DNA of 64,000 nucleotides from positions 64,001-128,000 of IMG/VR virus record IMGVR_UViG_3300035390_000014; one strand, 5' to 3'. This document shows positions 3,139 through 57,879 of the stretch, piece after piece. This DNA comes from a virus. Its lineage: Duplodnaviria; Caudoviricetes. The translations under genes were made by a program, and so were the position numbers. Numbering within the stretch: the first letter of the stretch is position 1; the number at the start of each line of letters is the position of its first letter. The notes below the pieces were generated by a model that saw only the letters and a program-made list of their open reading frames with translations, was not told where the DNA came from and made no database searches.

Positions 3139-3891
3139 TTATTCCTCTATCAAACTGCTTCTACCATAGATAGAAATATCAATATCACCAATAGCAGTTT
3201 TAAAAGTATTTGAGCAAATCTGTTCTTGATAATTATACATTTTCAATTCAATTTTTCCATCATGGTCAATAATAAATGGAGTATTAGTCAAACTACTAGT
3301 ACATTCCATTGGACGTTCTAGAGTAATAGCAGATAGAATTTTAGCACTTTGATCATGCCCCTGAGTTTCCATAGTAATAGAAGCTACTTCATTCTCAAAT
3401 GAAATTTGTGTTGAATTTACATTGAAACTCTGAGCAATAATCCTCATTCTGTCTGAGATATTTAGCTCTATATCAGTTGCTAGAATTACATCTTCTTCAT
3501 TCAATGTAAAAATATGCTCAAGTTCCTCGGATGTAATAAACCTATTATCCATGTATTCAAGCTCTGGGCCTTGAAATTTAATAGAAGAATATTCATCTGA
3601 AAAAGTAAAATTTCCATCATCATCTACAACAATATCAATGGTTTGACTCTGAGTCGAACTTTGACTCAAGAAGATTTTTAACAAATCTAATTTTTGTTTT
3701 AGGTTAACCAATGGTACATCAAGTGTATCAATAATTGGAGTCATATCAATTTCAAATACATTGGCATTATCATTAGTTCTCTGTCTCAGGATTCCACCAT
3801 GAATGTCTGCATCATTGCAAACATCTTTTAAAATTGACAAACATCTCAAGAATTGTTCATAATTCTCCATACTCATATTCACTTGTTCCAT
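3139..3891 (-). CDS. Probable DNA polymerase sliding clamp (gp45/PCNA-like)
   Basis: 250 aa, acidic, beta-rich pattern, near primase and clamp loader; no diagnostic motif. Confidence 0.45.
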   Translation of the reverse strand: MEQVNMSMENYEQFLRCLSILKDVCNDADIHGGILRQRTNDNANVFEIDMTPIIDTLDVPLVNLKQKLDLLKIFLSQSSTQSQTIDIVVDDDGNFTFSDEYSSIKFQGPELEYMDNRFITSEELEHIFTLNEEDVILATDIELNISDRMRIIAQSFNVNSTQISFENEVASITMETQGHDQSAKILSAITLERPMECTSSLTNTPFIIDHDGKIELKMYNYQEQICSNTFKTAIGDIDISIYGRSSLIEE

Positions 3892-12244: not shown

Positions 12245-12264
12245 ATGTATATTAATATATATAG
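12245..12264 (-). promoter_or_regulatory. 20-bp motif CTATATATATTAATATACAT, copy 1
   Basis: Exact intergenic copies also at 35801, 50701 and 52723 on +. Confidence 0.6.
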
Positions 12265-35800: not shown

Positions 35801-35820
35801 CTATATATATTAATATACAT
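35801..35820 (+). promoter_or_regulatory. 20-bp motif CTATATATATTAATATACAT, copy 2
   Basis: Exact repeat, intergenic. Confidence 0.6.
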
Positions 35821-45074: not shown

Positions 45075-45464
45075 GGGGATGAAATGGTATCGCTATAGGT
45101 AGGAATTTTATACTGCGCTTCGTGAATGATTGAGTCACGTTAAAATTGATCATGTAAATACAACTGCAGACAATTTCGCAGATGATTACGCACTAGCAAT
45201 AGCAGCGTAATTCGTTCTAGTTAGTTTATATCTTCGGATTAATATAGGGCGTCGACTTAGAAGATTAGAATTATATTGGTTGGACATAAGATAATTCCAT
45301 GTGACTTTATAATTTGAAACTACTACAGAAATTTATCCTTCAACAATGTTGTTTTGTCAATTCCACATATAGTGATTTGTTGAAGTATTAAAAATTGACT
45401 ATAAGCGTAGATGTATTCTTGGAATATACTATATACTCGAGTTCGACTCTCGACATCTCCACCA
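45075..45464 (+). ncRNA. ssrA: tmRNA, tag peptide ADNFADDYALAIAA
   Basis: 5' GGGGATG pairs with 3' CATCTCC-ACCA; T-arm CTCGAGTTCGACTCTCGA; tag ORF 45166-45210 after ACAACT. Confidence 0.92.
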
Positions 45465-47177: not shown

Positions 47178-47520
47178 ATGTGTAGTTTGTAGAACTGAAT
47201 TTGATCACGCTGAACTTGATGGGGCACGTGGTTGCCCGGTATGTGGTTATCAAGGACTTACTATGCTAACTAATGGAGATGTAGCTGTAAATATTAATTG
47301 GTTTGAACTTAGGTTGATATGTATGTGGGCTGAATCTTTAGCTTTACAAGTCGGTGATTCCCATAGTCTCAATGCTTTTTATTCAGTAGTTAATGAATTA
47401 AAGAAACAAATACCAGATTCTGGTAAAATAACAATGTTTGATAAAGCACCTGATCTCACTTGTGATTCAGATTATAATATAGATGATTTAGTAGTTCCGG
47501 ATGGGACGATATTCAATTGA
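47149..47520 (+). CDS. Zn-ribbon protein
   Basis: CVVC...CPVCG. Confidence 0.6.
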   Translation: MENYHMKPIRCVVCRTEFDHAELDGARGCPVCGYQGLTMLTNGDVAVNINWFELRLICMWAESLALQVGDSHSLNAFYSVVNELKKQIPDSGKITMFDKAPDLTCDSDYNIDDLVVPDGTIFN

Positions 47521-48905
47521 AGACTAATAATGTTTTAGTGATAGGTGATATAATCCTTGATAAATATATCAAAGGTTCAGTATCCCGCATTTCACCAGAA
47601 GCTCCTGTTCCTATTATTAAAATAGATGATGAACATTACTCATTGGGTGGAGCTGCTAACGTAGCTAATAATTTATCCTCGTTAGGATGCAGTGTTAGTA
47701 TCATTGGTATCATTGGTCTTGATTCCGACGGAAATAAATTAAAACAATTATTTAAAGAAACTAATATTCATTGCTATTTTAATTATAATAAGAATTATAA
47801 AACAACATCTAAGACCAGAATAATTGGTAATAATCAACAGGTAGCAAGACTTGATTATAATGATAATAGTAAACCAGAAGAAATTAGTATTTTTACAATA
47901 GAGCAAACAATTAAAGATGTAATAGATCCATATGATATTGTTGTTATATCTGATTATGATAAAGGAGTTTGTACGAATAGAATATGTCGAACAATAATTC
48001 ATTTATGTAATCAAAAAAATATTCCAGTTATCGTTGATCCAAAGGGAACTGATTGGGATAAATATAGAAAAGCATATATGATAACTCCTAATCTAAAAGA
48101 AACATCTGAGTTAATTGGTAATGAAATTAAAAATACTAATATACAGATTAATGCTAAATGTAGAAATTTAAATGATCAAGTTAGATCTCAATACTTATTA
48201 ATAACAAGATCAGATAAAGGAATGTCTTTAGTTGATGAAGCTGGTATTATTCATATACCATCTAAATCTAAAGAAGTCTTTGATGTTACTGGTGCTGGTG
48301 ATACTGTTATAGCAACTATTGCAGCATTTATTAATAGAATGAAAATAATTGATGTTATTAATTTAGCTAATAAAGCGGCTGGAATAGCAGTATCAAAAAC
48401 AGGAACATCAACAGTAACACAAGATGAATTGAATAATGATCCTATTAGTAATAAGATAATGACTGTAGATTCTTTAATGAAACATGTTAAATTATGGAAA
48501 CAAAAAGAAGAGTCTATCGTATTTACTAATGGTTGTTACGATCTATTTCATAAAGGTCATGCTCATTCAATACATAAAGCATCTGAACTTGGTAATCGCT
48601 TAATAGTTGCTATTAATTCAGATGAATCAGTTCATAGAATTAAAGGTGATAATAGACCATTAAACAATGAATATGATAGAGCATTTGTTATAGCATCTAT
48701 TAATAATGTTGATGCAGTAATTATATTTAATGAGGTTACACCAGATAACATATTACAATTAATCAGACCCAGTGTATTAGTTAAGGGTGGGGATTATATG
48801 CTTCATGAGATTGTAGGAAGAGAATATGCGGATAGAGTTGAAGTTATTAATTATTTACATGGTTATTCAACTACTAAGATGGTTAAAAAAATAGAAGGTA
48901 AATAA
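47517..48905 (+). CDS. hldE: Bifunctional D-glycero-D-manno-heptose kinase / adenylyltransferase
   Basis: GDIILDKY..GSVSRISPEAPVP, DVTGAGDTV, VFTNGCYDLFHKGH, RPLN, LVKGGDY. Confidence 0.95.
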   Translation: MKTNNVLVIGDIILDKYIKGSVSRISPEAPVPIIKIDDEHYSLGGAANVANNLSSLGCSVSIIGIIGLDSDGNKLKQLFKETNIHCYFNYNKNYKTTSKTRIIGNNQQVARLDYNDNSKPEEISIFTIEQTIKDVIDPYDIVVISDYDKGVCTNRICRTIIHLCNQKNIPVIVDPKGTDWDKYRKAYMITPNLKETSELIGNEIKNTNIQINAKCRNLNDQVRSQYLLITRSDKGMSLVDEAGIIHIPSKSKEVFDVTGAGDTVIATIAAFINRMKIIDVINLANKAAGIAVSKTGTSTVTQDELNNDPISNKIMTVDSLMKHVKLWKQKEESIVFTNGCYDLFHKGHAHSIHKASELGNRLIVAINSDESVHRIKGDNRPLNNEYDRAFVIASINNVDAVIIFNEVTPDNILQLIRPSVLVKGGDYMLHEIVGREYADRVEVINYLHGYSTTKMVKKIEGK

Positions 48906-50700: not shown

Positions 50701-50720
50701 CTATATATATTAATATACAT
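50701..50720 (+). promoter_or_regulatory. 20-bp motif CTATATATATTAATATACAT, copy 3
   Basis: Exact repeat, intergenic. Confidence 0.6.
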
Positions 50721-51803: not shown

Positions 51804-52568
51804 ATGATTTGTGAATATTGTAAAGAAGAGCATGATGGTGAATATGGATCTGGTAGATTTTGTAACTCTAAATGTGCGAGAGGATTTTCTACTAAAGCTA
51901 AAAGAAAAGATATAAATAAAAATCTTTCTGAAAAAATGAAAGGGTATAAAACTATACCTGGTGGAATGATTAAACTTTGTGATTATGGTTGTGGAAAAGA
52001 AGCGAAATTTGAAATGACTAATGGAAATTGGTGTTGTGAAAACCATTATTCTAAATGTCCATCTATTATTAAAAAGAATTCAATAGCTTTAAAATCTGCT
52101 TATAAAAGTGGTAGAAAATCAAAATTTATTATGCCACAAGAAGCTTTAGATAGATCTTTAGAAACAAGAAAAAATAATCTATGTGAATATTATAATTCTA
52201 TACCATTTGAAAAGAAACCTGATGCTGAAAGACGAAGAATTATTTTAAATGAACAAGATGAAAAATGTTTGATTTGTGGCATTAAGGATTGGAATAATAA
52301 ATCTTTAGTATTACATCTTGATCATATTGATGGTAATAATCAAAATAATAAAAGAGAAAATTTAAGAATTATTTGTCCGAATTGTCATAGTCAAACAGAT
52401 ACATATTGTAGAGGAAAACCAAAAAATATATCAGATAAAAAATTATCTAAATTACTTATAAAAAATAATTTTAATTTTTGTAAAACATTAAATGAAGTAG
52501 ATTTAGTTCCTGGTGGTTATAACTGGGAACGAATTACAAAATTAGCGAATAAGATTATGCCCGCGTAG
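51804..52568 (+). CDS. HNH homing endonuclease
   Basis: CDYGCG module; C..CG...W....L.LHLDHIDGN..NN..ENLRIICPNCHSQT. Confidence 0.9.
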   Translation: MICEYCKEEHDGEYGSGRFCNSKCARGFSTKAKRKDINKNLSEKMKGYKTIPGGMIKLCDYGCGKEAKFEMTNGNWCCENHYSKCPSIIKKNSIALKSAYKSGRKSKFIMPQEALDRSLETRKNNLCEYYNSIPFEKKPDAERRRIILNEQDEKCLICGIKDWNNKSLVLHLDHIDGNNQNNKRENLRIICPNCHSQTDTYCRGKPKNISDKKLSKLLIKNNFNFCKTLNEVDLVPGGYNWERITKLANKIMPA

Positions 52569-52645
52569 AAGAATTGGTTTATTCAGCAGACTTAGACCCT
52601 GTGCTTTTAATAGGCGTGTGAGTTCGAATCTCACCGTGGGTACCA
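52559..52645 (+). tRNA. tRNA-Leu(TAG)
   Basis: Loop CTTAGAC, long variable arm, A73, CCA. Confidence 0.85.
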
Positions 52646-52652
52646 TATAATA

Positions 52653-52688
52653 AAAGCGGTTACTTGTATATTATAAGTAACCGCTTTT
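52653..52688 (+). terminator. Intrinsic terminator
   Basis: AAAAGCGGTTACTT...AAGTAACCGCTTTT. Confidence 0.8.
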
Positions 52689-52722
52689 CTTCCATAATTC
52701 CACTCAATTAAAAAATCCCAAT

Positions 52723-52742
52723 CTATATATATTAATATACAT
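52723..52742 (+). promoter_or_regulatory. 20-bp motif CTATATATATTAATATACAT, copy 4
   Basis: Exact repeat directly upstream of riboswitch 1. Confidence 0.6.
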
Positions 52743-52772: not shown

Positions 52773-52854
52773 ACGTCCGAAAAGGCACGGGACATAGGAG
52801 CTCCCACGCAAAGTCACAGGTCATATTTATATGATGGCTGGTCTACCGAAGCGT
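52773..52854 (+). ncRNA. c-di-GMP-I (GEMM-I) riboswitch, copy 1
   Basis: CGAAAAGGC-P2-ACGCAAAG-P3-GGCTGGTCTACCGAA; Vc2-equivalent G20, G21-C46, C22-G45, C44/G83, A47, C92 all present. Confidence 0.8.
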
Positions 52855-52875
52855 CCTTACTGGGAGGATGTTTTA

Positions 52876-53376
52876 ATGAAACGAATGCTAATTTTATTAG
52901 TGTTTATGATCTTATCAACTGGATGTGCAATAAAACCTGTTTATCAAGTGAATGGCTATCCAGTCCCTAATAATGTCATTAAGGCAAAAACATTTGCTTT
53001 AGATTTAACAATAACTTATAATTTACAAAAAACCTTTAATGTAAAAGAAGGCAAAGAATCATATCAAACTTATGATTTTCTACCTTTGACTGATTCAACA
53101 ATATTTAAAATTAAGGATGATGAAAAATTAATTTTTAATATTGATGTTTTCAATCCATTAAAGAAATACTATAAGTTAGTTCAATATACAACTATAGAAG
53201 GAGGTGGTGGAGATGAAGTAGTATTGTACGAAGGTGAATTAAGCAGAAAACATGTATCTGTACATTTACCATTGATCCCAACCAAGTTGGTTAGTTTTTA
53301 TTATGATGCATGTAGTAAAAACGATGACTTGGTTTTTAGGTCCTTTCAAAATCAGTATATTTTCTCTGAATATTGA
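52876..53376 (+). CDS. Predicted lipoprotein
   Basis: MKRMLILLVFMILSTG-C lipobox; ATG 52876 with GGAGG RBS. Confidence 0.75.
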   Translation: MKRMLILLVFMILSTGCAIKPVYQVNGYPVPNNVIKAKTFALDLTITYNLQKTFNVKEGKESYQTYDFLPLTDSTIFKIKDDEKLIFNIDVFNPLKKYYKLVQYTTIEGGGGDEVVLYEGELSRKHVSVHLPLIPTKLVSFYYDACSKNDDLVFRSFQNQYIFSEY

Positions 53377-53396
53377 AGGATGAATTTTTTATACGT

Positions 53397-53490
53397 GAAC
53401 GAACGAAAAAGGCACGGGATCACGTGGTCCCACGCAAAGTCACAGGTCTTTTATAAAGGATAAAAGATGGCTGGTCTACCGAAAACGTTC
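53397..53490 (+). ncRNA. c-di-GMP-I (GEMM-I) riboswitch, copy 2
   Basis: Same core as copy 1 with different P2/P3 loops; P1 GAACG/CGTTC. Confidence 0.82.
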
Positions 53491-53522
53491 TAATTAATTT
53501 TATTTAATTAGGAGTTTTCAAG

Positions 53523-54482
53523 ATGAAAAAAATGTTTAAAAGTTTAGTTATTGGTTTGGCAATTGTTGGTCTGATCGCATCCACAGGTTATGCACGCGGT
53601 GGTTATAATGAAAGCGTTGTAGGCGGCGGCGATATTCAGTTTAACGGTGCTACAATTCCCAATGGAGCTGCTGGCGGTATTTCAGGATCTGGCGGTTTTA
53701 GTGCTGCCCAGTCTGCTGGCGGTGGTTGGGGTCGTGTTGGTGGTGATATTTCCATTGCTGCTGGTGGTGTAACTGATACTACTTCAGGTACATATGTTAA
53801 TAACCACAGAGGTTATACTGAGATTGGTGTTTATAGTCGAAGTGAAAACCTTGCAACCACAAATGGTTTTACCACTATTAATGGTCAGGGTGCTGTAGTA
53901 GCTGAAAGTACTATGATCGGTGGTGCTGCTGAGGGAACATTGAATGGTTCTGTAATTGGGAAATCTCCAAGGTTCTTTACTACTGATGGTGTTAGTGGTG
54001 GAGTTGCTGGTCAGGGTGCTGTAGGTGGATTTGTTGGAGTTTCTGGTCTTGCTCTTGAAGGCGATGTTTCCATGAGAGCTAATCTAGAGTTCTCTGGATC
54101 TTCTTATTCAGATTCTTTTAGATTTGTAGAACGTGATCGCCAAAACGGAACTAAAACAGAAGGTATGGGCACTTATGTTGGAGCCAATACTAATGTTAGA
54201 ACTGATGGTTGGGTAGATCCCAATGGTTTTGTTGAAGGTGGTTTTGTTGCAGCCGGTGGAGCAGCATCTAAAACAGTTCAGAAAAGTGATACTGGATTTG
54301 CCAAAGCTTCTACAGTTGGTACTTATTCAGGTTCAGGTTCTTTAGGTGATAATTATACTGGAAAAGCTAATGGTTATACCAAAACTAGCATTACTCAGTA
54401 TAGAGGTATGACTGGAAGCATCGTTACATCTTCAGCTGGAATGCATGTTGTTTCTACAACATCTCCTGTTCAACATAATTAA
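53523..54482 (+). CDS. Exported Gly/Ser-rich beta-repeat protein
   Basis: Sec-type signal peptide (ASTGYA), Gly-rich low-complexity body, locally higher GC. Confidence 0.75.
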   Translation: MKKMFKSLVIGLAIVGLIASTGYARGGYNESVVGGGDIQFNGATIPNGAAGGISGSGGFSAAQSAGGGWGRVGGDISIAAGGVTDTTSGTYVNNHRGYTEIGVYSRSENLATTNGFTTINGQGAVVAESTMIGGAAEGTLNGSVIGKSPRFFTTDGVSGGVAGQGAVGGFVGVSGLALEGDVSMRANLEFSGSSYSDSFRFVERDRQNGTKTEGMGTYVGANTNVRTDGWVDPNGFVEGGFVAAGGAASKTVQKSDTGFAKASTVGTYSGSGSLGDNYTGKANGYTKTSITQYRGMTGSIVTSSAGMHVVSTTSPVQHN

Positions 54483-54563
54483 ATTACCAATTAACTAAAC
54501 ATCATACCCCCAAGCTTAGATAGTTGGGGGTATAAAATTTGAATTAAACGTAAGAGAATAAAA

Positions 54564-55406
54564 TTGAAAATTTATAAATTTGCATTACTTAGTATTATGA
54601 GTATGTTGATTATGGTGATGTTCACAGTCCCGTCATTTGCTGGTGCGGATGCGGATGCTGATGCTAAAGCTAAAGCTGGTGCAACATCATCCATTGATTC
54701 TCATGATAATATTACCAATCAACGTGGTTATGCCATTCAGGGTCAGGTACAGTACCCCGGAATGCCCGGATACTTTGGTCCCAATAACAAACCCGGTCAT
54801 CAGTTCATTTCCCTTAATAAATTGTTGATGTATAACACAGCTTGGAACATTAAAGCTGAATACGGTTCTACAACCGGCCAGACAATCAATATAACTCCCC
54901 ATGCCAAAATGGTTACCCCGGAAGAAAGAAGTAAAGTTGTCATCTGCACCAAGGATATCTTTGACAAGACCAAATTTGAAATTGATCTCCTTGCAGTCGG
55001 TGCCATTAATTCAACCCAGAAAAATGTTATTTCTTCTGACTTGTTGGATTATGTTTTAGCAACGGCAGCCAAATATGGCGCCACCCATGTCCAGTTTCTG
55101 GCTGAGGGTACTAACACTGAACTCCAGTCTTCTGGTTGGGGTATTGGTCTTAATTATACCAAAGCTACAGATACATCAGTATCAACTGGCGGCACCGGGT
55201 TCTCAACTGGATGGTCCGGTTATCAGAATCTACCCTGGCAGCAATTCTTCTTTTTGAAGGTTGTTAATCCTGGAGCAGTTGCTTCAATTACACCTGATAT
55301 TGAAAAAGCAGATGTTGTTGAAAACGACGTAATTGTAAAAGATAATACCAAAGTAGATAATGCTGTGAAAGAAGCCTCTACAAAACAGGGTGGAAATCAC
55401 AACTAA
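54564..55406 (+). CDS. Exported hypothetical protein
   Basis: Signal peptide ending VPSFA; GADADADAKAKAGA N-terminus. Confidence 0.75.
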   Translation: MKIYKFALLSIMSMLIMVMFTVPSFAGADADADAKAKAGATSSIDSHDNITNQRGYAIQGQVQYPGMPGYFGPNNKPGHQFISLNKLLMYNTAWNIKAEYGSTTGQTINITPHAKMVTPEERSKVVICTKDIFDKTKFEIDLLAVGAINSTQKNVISSDLLDYVLATAAKYGATHVQFLAEGTNTELQSSGWGIGLNYTKATDTSVSTGGTGFSTGWSGYQNLPWQQFFFLKVVNPGAVASITPDIEKADVVENDVIVKDNTKVDNAVKEASTKQGGNHN

Positions 55407-55442: not shown

Positions 55443-55480
55443 AAAAATGAGTCGTCAAGTTATTAGGCGACTCATTTTTT
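55443..55480 (+). terminator. Intrinsic terminator closing the riboswitch cassette
   Basis: AAAAAATGAGTCG...CGACTCATTTTTT. Confidence 0.8.
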
Positions 55481-55598
55481 TGTCATTTTTTTATGAGTAT
55501 AAAACTTGAAGTCCCCTACTGCTAGTTGATTTCTCTAAGCTATTGAACATATTATAAATACTAGTTATTGTATGTTAATTCTTTAATAGAGAGGTTAT

Positions 55599-56949: not shown

Positions 56950-57879
56950 ATGAAAATTTTAATTACTGGTGGTGCTGGATTTGCAGGATGTGGTATTGTT
57001 AAAAGATTTTTGAAATTAAATCATGAAGTAACTGTTATAGATATAGTTCCAAAATCACATTCAAATTTACATAATGTTAACGATCATAATTTTTCATATA
57101 TATGGAAATCTGTACATGATGTTAATAAAGAAGATATTAAAGATAAAGAGATTATAATACATTTAGCTGCTCAGGCTGATGTTCCTATGGCATTTGGATC
57201 ACCAAGATGGACTTCATTTCAAAACATTGATGGTTTGTTAGCTATGTTAGAAGTTTGTCGTGGGGAAAAACATATTAAAAAATTTGTAGTAGCTTCATCT
57301 GGTAATGTATTTGGAAGATATAAATATATACCAATAGATGAAAAACATCAATACATGCCACATAATCCATATGCATTTTCTAAAGCTTCTCAAGAGTTAG
57401 CAGCCATGAGTTATTATAGATGTTATAATATACCTATAATTATTTTAGCAACAGGTGTAGTAGCTGGTCCATATATGAGAAAAGAAGTTTTTATTTATAA
57501 ATGGTTATATAATATCCTTACAAATAAACCAACTTATTTAGAAGGTGGGTCCCAAACAAGAGATTTAACATATGTAACAGATACTATAGATGTTTTTAAT
57601 TTAGCTATAGAGGCTCCTGATGAAAAAGTTATTGGCGAAAAATTCTTAATATCATATGGAGAAGAAAATTCAGTTAAGGATCTTCTTGATATGTGTTATA
57701 GTGTTACTGGAGATAAACCAAATATTATTCATACAGATTTCAGACCAGGAGAAGAAGGACAAAGAGAATATTTTGATAATACAAAAGCTAGAAAAATATT
57801 AGGATATACTCCAAAAGTTGATCCACTAGAAACAATTGGGAATATAGCTAATTGGATAAAAAATATAATACTTAAATAA
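56950..57879 (+). CDS. NAD-dependent nucleotide-sugar epimerase/dehydratase
   Basis: GGAGFAG, HLAA, ASS, YAFSK, RDLTYV. Confidence 0.92.
   Translation: MKILITGGAGFAGCGIVKRFLKLNHEVTVIDIVPKSHSNLHNVNDHNFSYIWKSVHDVNKEDIKDKEIIIHLAAQADVPMAFGSPRWTSFQNIDGLLAMLEVCRGEKHIKKFVVASSGNVFGRYKYIPIDEKHQYMPHNPYAFSKASQELAAMSYYRCYNIPIIILATGVVAGPYMRKEVFIYKWLYNILTNKPTYLEGGSQTRDLTYVTDTIDVFNLAIEAPDEKVIGEKFLISYGEENSVKDLLDMCYSVTGDKPNIIHTDFRPGEEGQREYFDNTKARKILGYTPKVDPLETIGNIANWIKNIILK

What the first reader, a model, noticed from the sequence alone, without database searches (positions are those of the whole stretch)
52773..53490. Two c-di-GMP-I riboswitches in series in a jumbo-phage operon
Seen: two copies of CGAAAA(A)GGCAC-GGGA..TCCC-ACGCAAAGTCACAGGTC...GATGGCTGGTCTACCGAA, with different loops and compensating P1 stems, each directly upstream of a gene. 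Known: this fits GEMM-I, and G at the Vc2 position-20 equivalent predicts c-di-GMP rather than 3',3'-cGAMP. P2 lacks the usual GNRA tetraloop, so it is a structural variant. In copy 1 the 3' P1 strand (GCGTCCT) can instead pair with AGGATGT over the RBS, implying a translational ON switch. Inference: the phage reads the host's sessile/biofilm signal to express exported proteins. Phage-borne GEMM riboswitches are rare; I recall one in a C. difficile temperate phage.
Basis: partly seen in the sequence, partly recalled or inferred. Interest (0 to 1): 0.88.

Follow-up and report, generated by a model that had tools for sequence, protein, structure and literature searches.

The report
Two phage c-di-GMP riboswitches, one operon
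A giant phage from sediment carries two RNA switches of the known c-di-GMP-sensing class, each predicted to unlock translation of a cell-envelope protein gene when the host's biofilm signal is high; the switches look genuine and are rarely reported in phages, but they are a known kind.

Summary
Both elements are present at the stated coordinates. Copy 2 (53397-53490) scores 39.1 bits on Rfam c-di-GMP-I (RF01051, gathering score 35). Copy 1 (52773-52854) scores 31.9 bits, below the threshold but with E = 1.7e-5 for the genome. Both keep the Vc2 ligand-contact nucleotides (G20, A47, C92), the C44-G83 interhelical pair and the AAA linker. Both lack the usual GNRA tetraloop.

A third, homologous copy sits at the same cassette position in an unrelated 42-kb phage-like contig (L008). 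P1, P2 and distal P3 covary among the copies. In all three, the aptamer's 3' strand also forms a stable hairpin with the Shine-Dalgarno sequence. Forcing the aptamer fold frees that sequence, which predicts translational ON switches.

The operon runs from a promoter-like motif to a terminator. It encodes a lipoprotein, a Gly-rich protein resembling an outer-membrane beta-barrel, and a third exported protein. This cassette occurs in about 13 phage or metagenome contexts, and most of them lack the riboswitch.

Canonical GEMM-I aptamers occur in other IMG/VR contigs, including a 223-kb phage. This scan has also noted phage GEMM-I on other DNA. The case is a new member of a known kind. Ligand binding is untested.

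The parts
52652..52692 (+). Intrinsic terminator hairpin plus T-run after tRNA-Leu (52559-52645). It marks the upstream boundary of the transcription unit.
   Evidence: Read directly from the sequence; tRNA.
52726..52740 (+). Promoter-like palindromic motif TATATATTAATATAC, about 30 nt upstream of copy 1.
   Evidence: Four exact copies in the window against 2.8 matches (up to 2 mismatches) expected by chance. The same motif follows the homologous tRNA in relative L003. Promoter function is inferred.
52773..52854 (+). GEMM-I aptamer copy 1. Outer P1 pairs 52773-52776 with 52851-52854; inner P1 pairs 52778-52779 with 52847-52848. G20 equivalent 52784, C44 equivalent 52807, A47 equivalent 52810, G83 equivalent 52837, C92 equivalent 52846.
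   Evidence: RF01051 31.9 bits, E = 1.7e-5; RF03167 30.1 bits; own model R1 48.1 bits.
52848..52874 (+). Copy 1 sequestering hairpin of 11 bp. The aptamer's 3' junction and the P1 3' strand pair with the Shine-Dalgarno sequence (GGGAGGA, 52862-52868) and the U-run after it.
   Evidence: -12.4 kcal/mol, z = -3.2 against shuffles. SD unpaired probability is about 0 in the free fold and 0.2-0.5 with the aptamer enforced.
52876..53376 (+). Lipoprotein gene, 166 aa, with a signal peptide and lipobox LSTGC.
   Evidence: ORF and translation. Homologues at 38-48% identity in cassette relatives. No Pfam, PHROG or NCBIfam match.
53397..53490 (+). GEMM-I aptamer copy 2. Outer P1 pairs 53397-53401 with 53486-53490; inner P1 pairs 53404-53405 with 53480-53481. 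G20 equivalent 53411, C44 equivalent 53433, A47 equivalent 53436, G83 equivalent 53470, C92 equivalent 53479.
   Evidence: RF01051 39.1 bits, above the gathering score of 35.
53481..53519 (+). Copy 2 sequestering hairpin of 16 bp. GAAAAC, the P1 3' strand and an A/U arm pair with the Shine-Dalgarno sequence (AGGAG, 53510-53514) and GUUUUC.
   Evidence: -14.2 kcal/mol, z = -4.4. SD unpaired probability is about 0 in the free fold and about 0.9 with the aptamer enforced.
53523..54482 (+). Gene for a Gly-rich exported protein, 319 aa, predicted all-beta with long hairpins.
   Evidence: AlphaFold2 pLDDT 88.6. The nearest folds are outer-membrane beta-barrels, but the matches are weak: VIA Z up to 7.5, Atlas TM up to 0.45. 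30 homologues in metagenomes.
54564..55406 (+). Gene for the third exported protein (p3), 280 aa from a TTG start, with a signal peptide.
   Evidence: 43 homologues. The model core resembles FvfA, DUF4156 and small lipoprotein folds, weakly.
55447..55481 (+). Intrinsic terminator (8-bp stem, T-run) that ends the operon.
   Evidence: Read directly from the sequence.

Best explanation
Both elements are functional class-I c-di-GMP (GEMM-I) riboswitches on one phage mRNA. That mRNA starts near the promoter-like motif at 52726 and ends at the terminator at 55447-55481. Each aptamer gates translation of the cistron behind it. Without ligand, the aptamer's 3' junction and P1 3' strand pair with the Shine-Dalgarno sequence and the U-run after it, so the ribosome-binding site is closed. 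When host c-di-GMP binds at the P1-P2-P3 junction, P1 is locked, the sequestering hairpin loses its 5' arm, and the ribosome-binding site opens. These are therefore ON switches. The products are a lipoprotein, a protein resembling an outer-membrane beta-barrel, and probably the co-transcribed third exported protein. They would be made mainly in infected cells with high c-di-GMP, that is, sessile or biofilm-state cells. Shown here: family membership by score, conserved contact nucleotides, covariation, and mutually exclusive folds in three independent copies. Inferred: ligand identity, direction of regulation in vivo, and the purpose of the cassette. My guess for the purpose is envelope remodelling such as receptor masking or superinfection exclusion.
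For: RF01051 scores are 39.1 and 31.9 bits, and these are the only two matches in the 203-kb record. The G20, C44, A47, G83 and C92 equivalents and the AAA linker are present in both copies and in L008; their roles are described in PMC4744006, PMC5888326 and PMC1950547. A homologous aptamer sits at the same intercistronic position in L008, where the flanking proteins are only 27-52% identical but the aptamer cores are identical. On five sequences, 93.9% of cells are paired and 14 of 30 pairs show changes on both sides, against 30-43% paired when the partners are slid. Outer P1 reads ACGU/GCGU, GAACG/CGUUC and GAAGU/ACUUC in the three copies. The sequestering hairpins have z = -3.2, -4.4 and -3.0. 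SD accessibility rises from about 0 to 0.2-0.9 when the aptamer is enforced. There is no terminator between either aptamer and its start codon. The downstream gene products are exported, as is typical for GEMM.
Against: Copy 1 and L008 fall below the Rfam gathering score. All three variant copies lack the GNRA tetraloop that Weinberg 2007 calls almost invariable. They have a 2-nt rather than 3-nt internal loop in P2 and a conserved U.U mismatch near the base of P3, so affinity or specificity could differ. The enforced aptamer costs 3-9 kcal/mol relative to the free fold, which ligand binding would have to pay. With the aptamer enforced, the copy 1 Shine-Dalgarno sequence is only partly freed. 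The alignment used for pair counts was fitted to the model and holds only five sequences. There are no RNA data, the host is unknown, and no binding assay has been done.
Confidence: 0.75

Rival explanations
1. The aptamers are real riboswitches, but this tetraloop-less phage variant senses a different cyclic dinucleotide, such as 3',3'-cGAMP or another signal of host anti-phage systems, or it is promiscuous.
For: The variant shows structural departures from the consensus that are conserved in all three copies: no GNRA loop, a 2-nt P2 internal loop and a U.U mismatch two pairs below the pocket. The exact core was not found in 185,579 species genomes or in other IMG/VR contigs. The phage record has no GGDEF or EAL gene of its own.
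Against: Position 20 is G, position 47 is A and position 92 is C, the canonical c-di-GMP combination. The cGAMP class has A at position 20 (from my knowledge of Kellenberger 2015 and Nelson 2015, not checked here). The elements score higher on RF01051 than on the GGC variant model, and they fail that model's gathering score.
Confidence: 0.08
2. The aptamers bind c-di-GMP but act in another way, for example as OFF switches, through Rho or RNase access, or by controlling mRNA stability rather than ribosome access.
For: Most characterised GEMM-I switches, including the C. difficile prophage ones, act through transcription termination and are OFF switches. Thermodynamic folds ignore co-transcriptional kinetics. 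The copy 1 Shine-Dalgarno sequence is only partly opened in the enforced fold.
Against: No terminator-like hairpin with a trailing U-run lies between aptamer and start codon. The same overlap between sequestering hairpin and P1 recurs in three diverged copies. Vc1 of V. cholerae is a precedent for a GEMM-I ON switch.
Confidence: 0.1
3. The elements are decaying relics of a captured host leader, or chance look-alikes with no regulatory role.
For: Two of the three variant copies score below the gathering threshold. Most relatives of the cassette do without any riboswitch.
Against: The cores are identical in two copies within one genome and in a distant contig whose flanking proteins are 27-52% identical. 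Helices show compensatory changes. G+C is about 20 points above background. Conserved, significantly stable expression platforms are coupled to P1.
Confidence: 0.05

Closest known systems
Vc1 and Vc2 c-di-GMP-I riboswitches of Vibrio cholerae (RF01051; Vc2 structure PDB 3IRW)
   Same: They share the three-helix junction, the G20/A47/C92 contacts, the C44-G83 interhelical pair and the AAA linker. Vc1 is an ON switch in front of a gene for a secreted protein, gbpA.
   Different: The phage copies have no GNRA tetraloop or receptor, a shorter P3, a 2-nt P2 internal loop and a U.U mismatch. They are viral rather than chromosomal. One of them is intercistronic.
Cdi1_4 and Cdi1_5 c-di-GMP-I riboswitches in C. 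difficile prophages phiCD630-1 and phiCD630-2 (Sudarsan 2008; PMC7699646; PMC5473149)
   Same: They are GEMM-I aptamers carried on phage DNA. They are the only phage cases cited in the 2017 survey.
   Different: Those are in temperate prophages of a Gram-positive host. They act by premature transcription termination (OFF) and precede a type I antitoxin RNA. Here there are predicted translational ON switches, in a phage of about 200-300 kb, in front of envelope protein genes.
Canonical GEMM-I in other IMG/VR contigs found here (L014 in a 223-kb record, L026, and L116 with two copies)
   Same: They are c-di-GMP-I aptamers in phage contigs. L014 and L026 also carry the same three-gene cassette.
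   Different: They have GNRA tetraloops and high scores (61.7-88.9 bits). In L014 and L026 the aptamer lies after the cassette, in front of a PfkB-family sugar kinase gene (Pfam-confirmed for L014 only; for L026 inferred from the similar N-terminus).
Tandem riboswitches, such as the triple c-di-GMP-I Bc3-5 of Bacillus thuringiensis (from my own knowledge, not checked here)
   Same: There is more than one aptamer of the same class on one transcript.
   Different: In true tandems the aptamers share one 5' leader and one gene. Here each has its own sequestering hairpin and its own cistron.
GEMM-Ib 3',3'-cGAMP riboswitches of Geobacter, and the c-di-GMP-I-GGC variant (RF03167)
   Same: Same clan and same fold. 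Geobacter examples also control outer-membrane proteins.
   Different: GEMM-Ib has A at position 20, whereas these have G. The RF03167 consensus has G at the A47 position, whereas these have A, and the scores of 34.9 and 30.1 bits are far below its gathering score of 59.

Membership tests
c-di-GMP-I riboswitch (GEMM-I, RF01051) | Covariance-model score at or above the curated gathering score (35 bits), copy 2 | tested here: met
   39.1 bits over model positions 1-87 of 87.
c-di-GMP-I riboswitch (GEMM-I, RF01051) | Covariance-model score at or above the curated gathering score (35 bits), copy 1 | tested here: not met
   31.9 bits, E = 1.7e-5 for the record. The shortfall comes from the missing tetraloop and the short P3. 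The copy is homologous to copy 2 (48.1 bits on model R1).
c-di-GMP-I riboswitch (GEMM-I, RF01051) | P1-P2-P3 junction architecture supported by covariation | tested here: met
   93.9% of cells paired, 14 of 30 pairs changed on both sides, 0 of 500 shuffles as high, slid controls 30-43% paired. Caveat: five sequences, and the alignment was fitted to the model.
c-di-GMP-I riboswitch (GEMM-I, RF01051) | Ligand-contact nucleotides G20, A47 and C92 (Vc2 numbering) | tested here: met
   G52784, A52810 and C52846 in copy 1; G53411, A53436 and C53479 in copy 2; the same in L008. Roles are given.
c-di-GMP-I riboswitch (GEMM-I, RF01051) | Universally conserved interhelical C44-G83 pair and AAA linker between P2 and P3 | tested here: met
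   C52807 with G52837, and C53433 with G53470. The AAA linker follows the GC pair in all copies.
c-di-GMP-I riboswitch (GEMM-I, RF01051) | GNRA tetraloop on the first hairpin ('almost always' present); a tetraloop receptor in about half of members | tested here: not met
   The loops are a 9-nt loop, ACGU and AUAGG in the three variant copies. The criterion is from Weinberg 2007. It is a frequent feature, not a strictly defining one.
c-di-GMP-I riboswitch (GEMM-I, RF01051) | 5' regulatory configuration with an expression platform coupled to P1 | tested here: met
   The aptamers end 21 and 32 nt before the start codons. The sequestering hairpins overlap the P1 3' strand.
c-di-GMP-I riboswitch (GEMM-I, RF01051) | Selective, high-affinity binding of c-di-GMP | not testable with these tools
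   This needs in-line probing, ITC or equilibrium dialysis.
c-di-GMP-I-GGC variant (RF03167) | Gathering score of 59 bits, and G in place of A47 in the consensus | tested here: not met
   34.9 and 30.1 bits; both copies have A at that position.
GEMM-Ib 3',3'-cGAMP riboswitch | A at Vc2 position 20 | tested here: not met
   G is at that position in all three variant copies. The rule itself comes from my own knowledge.
Tandem riboswitch (several aptamers in one leader controlling one gene) | Adjacent aptamers that share one 5' UTR and one downstream gene | tested here: not met
   The copies are 543 nt apart and separated by a complete 166-codon gene. Each has its own Shine-Dalgarno hairpin.

The most novel reading that the evidence does not exclude
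The tetraloop-less aptamer seen only in phage contigs is a phage-specific GEMM subclass with altered ligand tuning. It would let a giant phage detect a host cyclic-dinucleotide signal other than housekeeping c-di-GMP, for example an immune or stress signal, and answer it by installing its own outer-membrane complex. More modestly, jumbo phages as a group may use GEMM-I to sense the host's sessile state and remodel the cell surface through the envelope cassette and heptose-pathway genes.
Probability: 0.08. Interest if true: 0.85.

Novelty: new member of a known kind. Interest (0 to 1): 0.52.

Why it matters
A published survey concluded that phages rarely use riboswitches, and it lists only two c-di-GMP-I examples, both in C. 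difficile prophages (PMC5473149). This case is a very large, uncultivated sediment phage with two such switches in one operon. A distant contig conserves the same design, and other phage contigs carry canonical GEMM-I aptamers. If the switches bind c-di-GMP, these phages read the host's main lifestyle messenger directly through RNA and use it to time production of proteins placed in the host envelope. That would be a cheap route for a virus to sense host physiology, and it gives a first handle on a conserved phage cassette of unknown function. The short tetraloop-less aptamers, each with a simple Shine-Dalgarno-sequestering platform, could also serve as compact ON sensors for c-di-GMP.

Tried and rejected
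- Exact and degenerate searches for the variant core found nothing in IMG/VR or in 185,579 species genomes.
- A loose GEMM pattern in IMG/VR returned 53 matches that look like chance hits in coding DNA. I therefore do not use it as a census.
- The Gly-rich protein found no relatives in IMG/VR by single-sequence search. The p3 alignment found none in species genomes and none in GenBank phages.
- Ten further cassette contexts with readable intergenic DNA had no GEMM: L003/L004, L007, L024, L029, L030, L031, L011/L012, L092-L095, L096/L097 and L098. The close relatives have a terminator-like hairpin instead.
- No GGDEF or EAL gene was found in the phage record. The record is only about 65% complete.
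- Sequencing runs gave three sediment DNA samples with identical sequence. There were no RNA runs and no variants.
- Pfam, PHROGs and NCBIfam found nothing for the three cassette proteins. The Atlas feature search for the lipoprotein was uninformative. Fold searches gave only weak resemblance to outer-membrane barrels and to FvfA/DUF4156, so no function is assigned.
- Membership of RF03167 was rejected.
- Terminator-based control was rejected because no terminator lies between aptamer and start codon. The minus-strand 'terminator' at 53435-53412 is simply P2 of copy 2 read backwards.
- Host assignment failed. The nearest cultured-phage homologues of the neighbouring exonuclease are about 30% identical and infect scattered phyla.
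- No complex prediction was run, because I do not claim that the cassette proteins bind each other.

Full report
**Observation**

Two elements, at 52773-52854 and 53397-53490, share identical core segments. They differ in the outer P1 strands, the P2 loop and the distal part of P3.

A scan of the whole window against Rfam 15 puts copy 2 in c-di-GMP-I (RF01051) at 39.1 bits, above the gathering score of 35. A search of the full 202,719-base virus record with RF01051 alone finds exactly two matches. Copy 2 scores 39.1 bits. Copy 1 scores 31.9 bits, with E = 1.7e-5, which is below the curated threshold. Fourteen control genomes gave no match above the threshold in the same search.

The aptamers are 47-52% G+C in a window of 29%. 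The record is an IMG/VR virus estimated at 65% complete. The window also holds a tmRNA, 14 tRNAs, a Dda-like helicase and tRNA nucleotidyltransferases. Calling it a jumbo phage is therefore fair.

**Anatomy of the aptamers**

Numbering follows Vc2. That numbering can be anchored because C44, G45, C46 and A47 are consecutive and G20 directly precedes the G21-C46 pair.

| Vc2 position | Copy 1 | Copy 2 |
|---|---|---|
| G20 | G52784 | G53411 |
| C44 | C52807 | C53433 |
| A47 | A52810 | A53436 |
| G83 | G52837 | G53470 |
| C92 | C52846 | C53479 |

G20, A47 and C92 contact the ligand. C44-G83 is the universally conserved interhelical pair. The AAA linker that Weinberg 2007 found in 320 of 322 GEMM sequences is also present.

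The departures from the consensus are:
- no GNRA tetraloop on the first hairpin;
- a 2-nt rather than 3-nt internal loop in that hairpin;
- a short P3 without a tetraloop receptor;
- a U.U mismatch near the base of P3.

The GGC-variant model RF03167 also matches, but at 34.9 and 30.1 bits against a gathering score of 59. Its consensus has G where these RNAs keep A47. They are not members of that variant.

**Relatives**

The three downstream proteins have no Pfam, PHROG or NCBIfam match. They do have dozens of metagenomic homologues. The three genes travel together as a cassette in about 13 distinct contexts. Most of these look like phage DNA, and some are syntenic with this phage, sharing the tmRNA, tRNAs, an RF-1-like gene and the exonuclease. 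The cassette was not found in 185,579 species genomes or in GenBank phages.

Most relatives have no riboswitch. One contig, L008 (42 kb, with SLT and PhoH neighbours), has a homologous aptamer at exactly the position of copy 2, between the lipoprotein gene and the Gly-rich gene. It scores 28.2 bits on RF01051 and 50.4 bits on my model R1. Its flanking proteins are only 27-52% identical to those of the window, yet the aptamer cores are identical.

Outer P1 reads ACGU/GCGU in copy 1, GAACG/CGUUC in copy 2 and GAAGU/ACUUC in L008. P2 and distal P3 also change while keeping their pairing.

Model R1 also picked up canonical, GNRA-capped GEMM-I aptamers in L014 and L026. L014 lies in a 223-kb IMG/VR record and scores 61.7 bits on RF01051. 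In both loci the aptamer sits after the cassette, in front of a PfkB-type sugar kinase gene. The kinase is Pfam-confirmed for L014 and inferred from the similar N-terminus for L026.

On the five-sequence alignment, 93.9% of cells are paired and 14 of 30 pairs change on both sides. No shuffle out of 500 reaches this. Sliding the partners gives 30-43% paired. That alignment was fitted to the model and is small, so I treat it as support rather than proof.

**Mechanism**

No terminator lies between either aptamer and its start codon. In all three variant copies, a hairpin runs from the inner-P1 G through the junction A-run and the outer P1 3' strand. It pairs with the Shine-Dalgarno sequence and the U-run behind it. 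It is the dominant local fold in each copy.

| Copy | Hairpin energy (kcal/mol) | z against shuffles | Free fold / aptamer-enforced fold (kcal/mol) | SD unpaired probability, free to enforced |
|---|---|---|---|---|
| Copy 1 | -12.4 | -3.2 | -27.0 / -18.3 | about 0 to 0.2-0.5 |
| Copy 2 | -14.2 | -4.4 | -36.7 / -27.5 | about 0 to about 0.9 |
| L008 | -8.7 | -3.0 | -22.0 / -19.0 | about 0 to 0.8-0.9 |

Hairpin figures are, and the other figures are. The energy gap between the two folds is the kind of difference that tight ligand binding could pay.

The named GCGUCCU:AGGAUGU pairing is part of the predicted hairpin. Copy 2 is intercistronic, and copy 1 is in the 5' leader. A repeated motif (TATATATTAATATAC, four exact copies in the window, also present in relative L003) lies about 30 nt upstream of copy 1 and may be the promoter. 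Terminators at 52652-52692 and 55447-55481 bracket the unit.

**What is controlled**

Gene 1 encodes a 166-aa lipoprotein with lipobox LSTGC. Its true start is ATG 52876, not the in-aptamer ATG at 52831.

Gene 2 encodes a 319-aa Gly-rich protein with a signal peptide. A confident all-beta model (pLDDT 88.6) has outer-membrane beta-barrels as its nearest, weak structural neighbours.

Gene 3 encodes an exported protein whose confident core weakly resembles FvfA, DUF4156 and small lipoprotein folds.

Together with the ADP-heptose-type genes nearby, this points to a didermic host and a phage-made envelope assembly. Its role is unknown. Receptor masking or superinfection exclusion in crowded, high-c-di-GMP cells is my guess only.

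The phage record has no GGDEF or EAL gene, so the signal would be the host's own.

**Comparison and novelty**

The class is well known. The 2017 survey states that phages rarely carry riboswitches, and it cites only two c-di-GMP-I cases, in C. difficile prophages. Those are termination-type OFF switches in front of an antitoxin RNA.

I found no paper describing GEMM-I in large phages. However, a strict pattern search of IMG/VR followed by an Rfam scan gave 11 clan matches above gathering score in 10 viral contigs. One of those contigs has two copies about 575 nt apart. Earlier notes of this scan also report phage GEMM-I in front of exported-protein genes on other DNA.

So this is a new member of a known kind, with an unusual tetraloop-less aptamer form. 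Two switches in one operon is a less common arrangement than a single leader switch, but it is not a true tandem riboswitch.

**Limits**

The host is unknown. No RNA data and no sequence variation were available. Ligand binding, specificity and direction of control are all untested.

Noticed in passing
window 12247-12261 (-), 35804-35818, 50704-50718, 52726-52740 (+); L003 about 3686-3700: The palindromic motif TATATATTAATATAC occurs four times exactly, each shortly upstream of a gene start, and is conserved after the homologous tRNA in a related phage contig. It is a candidate phage promoter or operator.
   Followed up: partly
L014 4249-4323 and L026 776-849: Canonical GNRA-capped c-di-GMP-I aptamers (L014 scores 61.7 bits on RF01051) lie just after the same three-gene cassette and in front of a PfkB-family sugar kinase gene (heptose kinase-like; Pfam-confirmed for L014 only). 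In these phages c-di-GMP may gate sugar-nucleotide synthesis instead of the cassette.
   Followed up: partly
L116 2306-2392 and 2881-2968 (-); also L119, L113, L101, L111, L105, L100, L108, L102: Other IMG/VR contigs hold GEMM-I-clan aptamers above gathering score: six score 76-89 bits on RF01051, and three more (L100, L108, L102) score 64-74 bits on RF03167. One contig has two copies about 575 nt apart. Their downstream genes were not examined.
   Followed up: no
window 54505-54531: A G+C-rich 8-bp hairpin (ACCCCCAA...TTGGGGGT) lies between the Gly-rich gene and the TTG start of the third gene. It could be an attenuator or an mRNA-stabilising element.
   Followed up: no
window 45075-45464 and 42367-62783: The phage encodes a tmRNA (94.3 bits, tag peptide ADNFADDYALAIAA) and 14 tRNAs. 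Related contigs L003 and L004 carry a homologous tmRNA (122.9 bits).
   Followed up: no
window 51804-52568 and 52559-52645: An HNH endonuclease gene ends 10 nt inside the tRNA-Leu(UAG) gene that precedes the riboswitch operon.
   Followed up: no
window 47517-48905 and 56950-57879: A bifunctional HldE-like gene (PfkB kinase plus cytidylyltransferase) and an NAD-dependent epimerase/dehydratase gene flank the region. The phage appears to make nucleotide-activated heptose or a related sugar.
   Followed up: no
L007 4435-6936: The cassette also occurs, without a riboswitch, in a 35.8-kb contig beside a hybrid histidine kinase and genes for Laminin_G_3, transglutaminase, caspase-like and SPRY proteins. 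That contig may be cellular or another very large phage.
   Followed up: no
L110 7801-7866 (-): A DUF3800-VIII RNA match (59.2 bits, gathering score 40.2) appears in an unrelated IMG/VR contig that the pattern search fetched.
   Followed up: no
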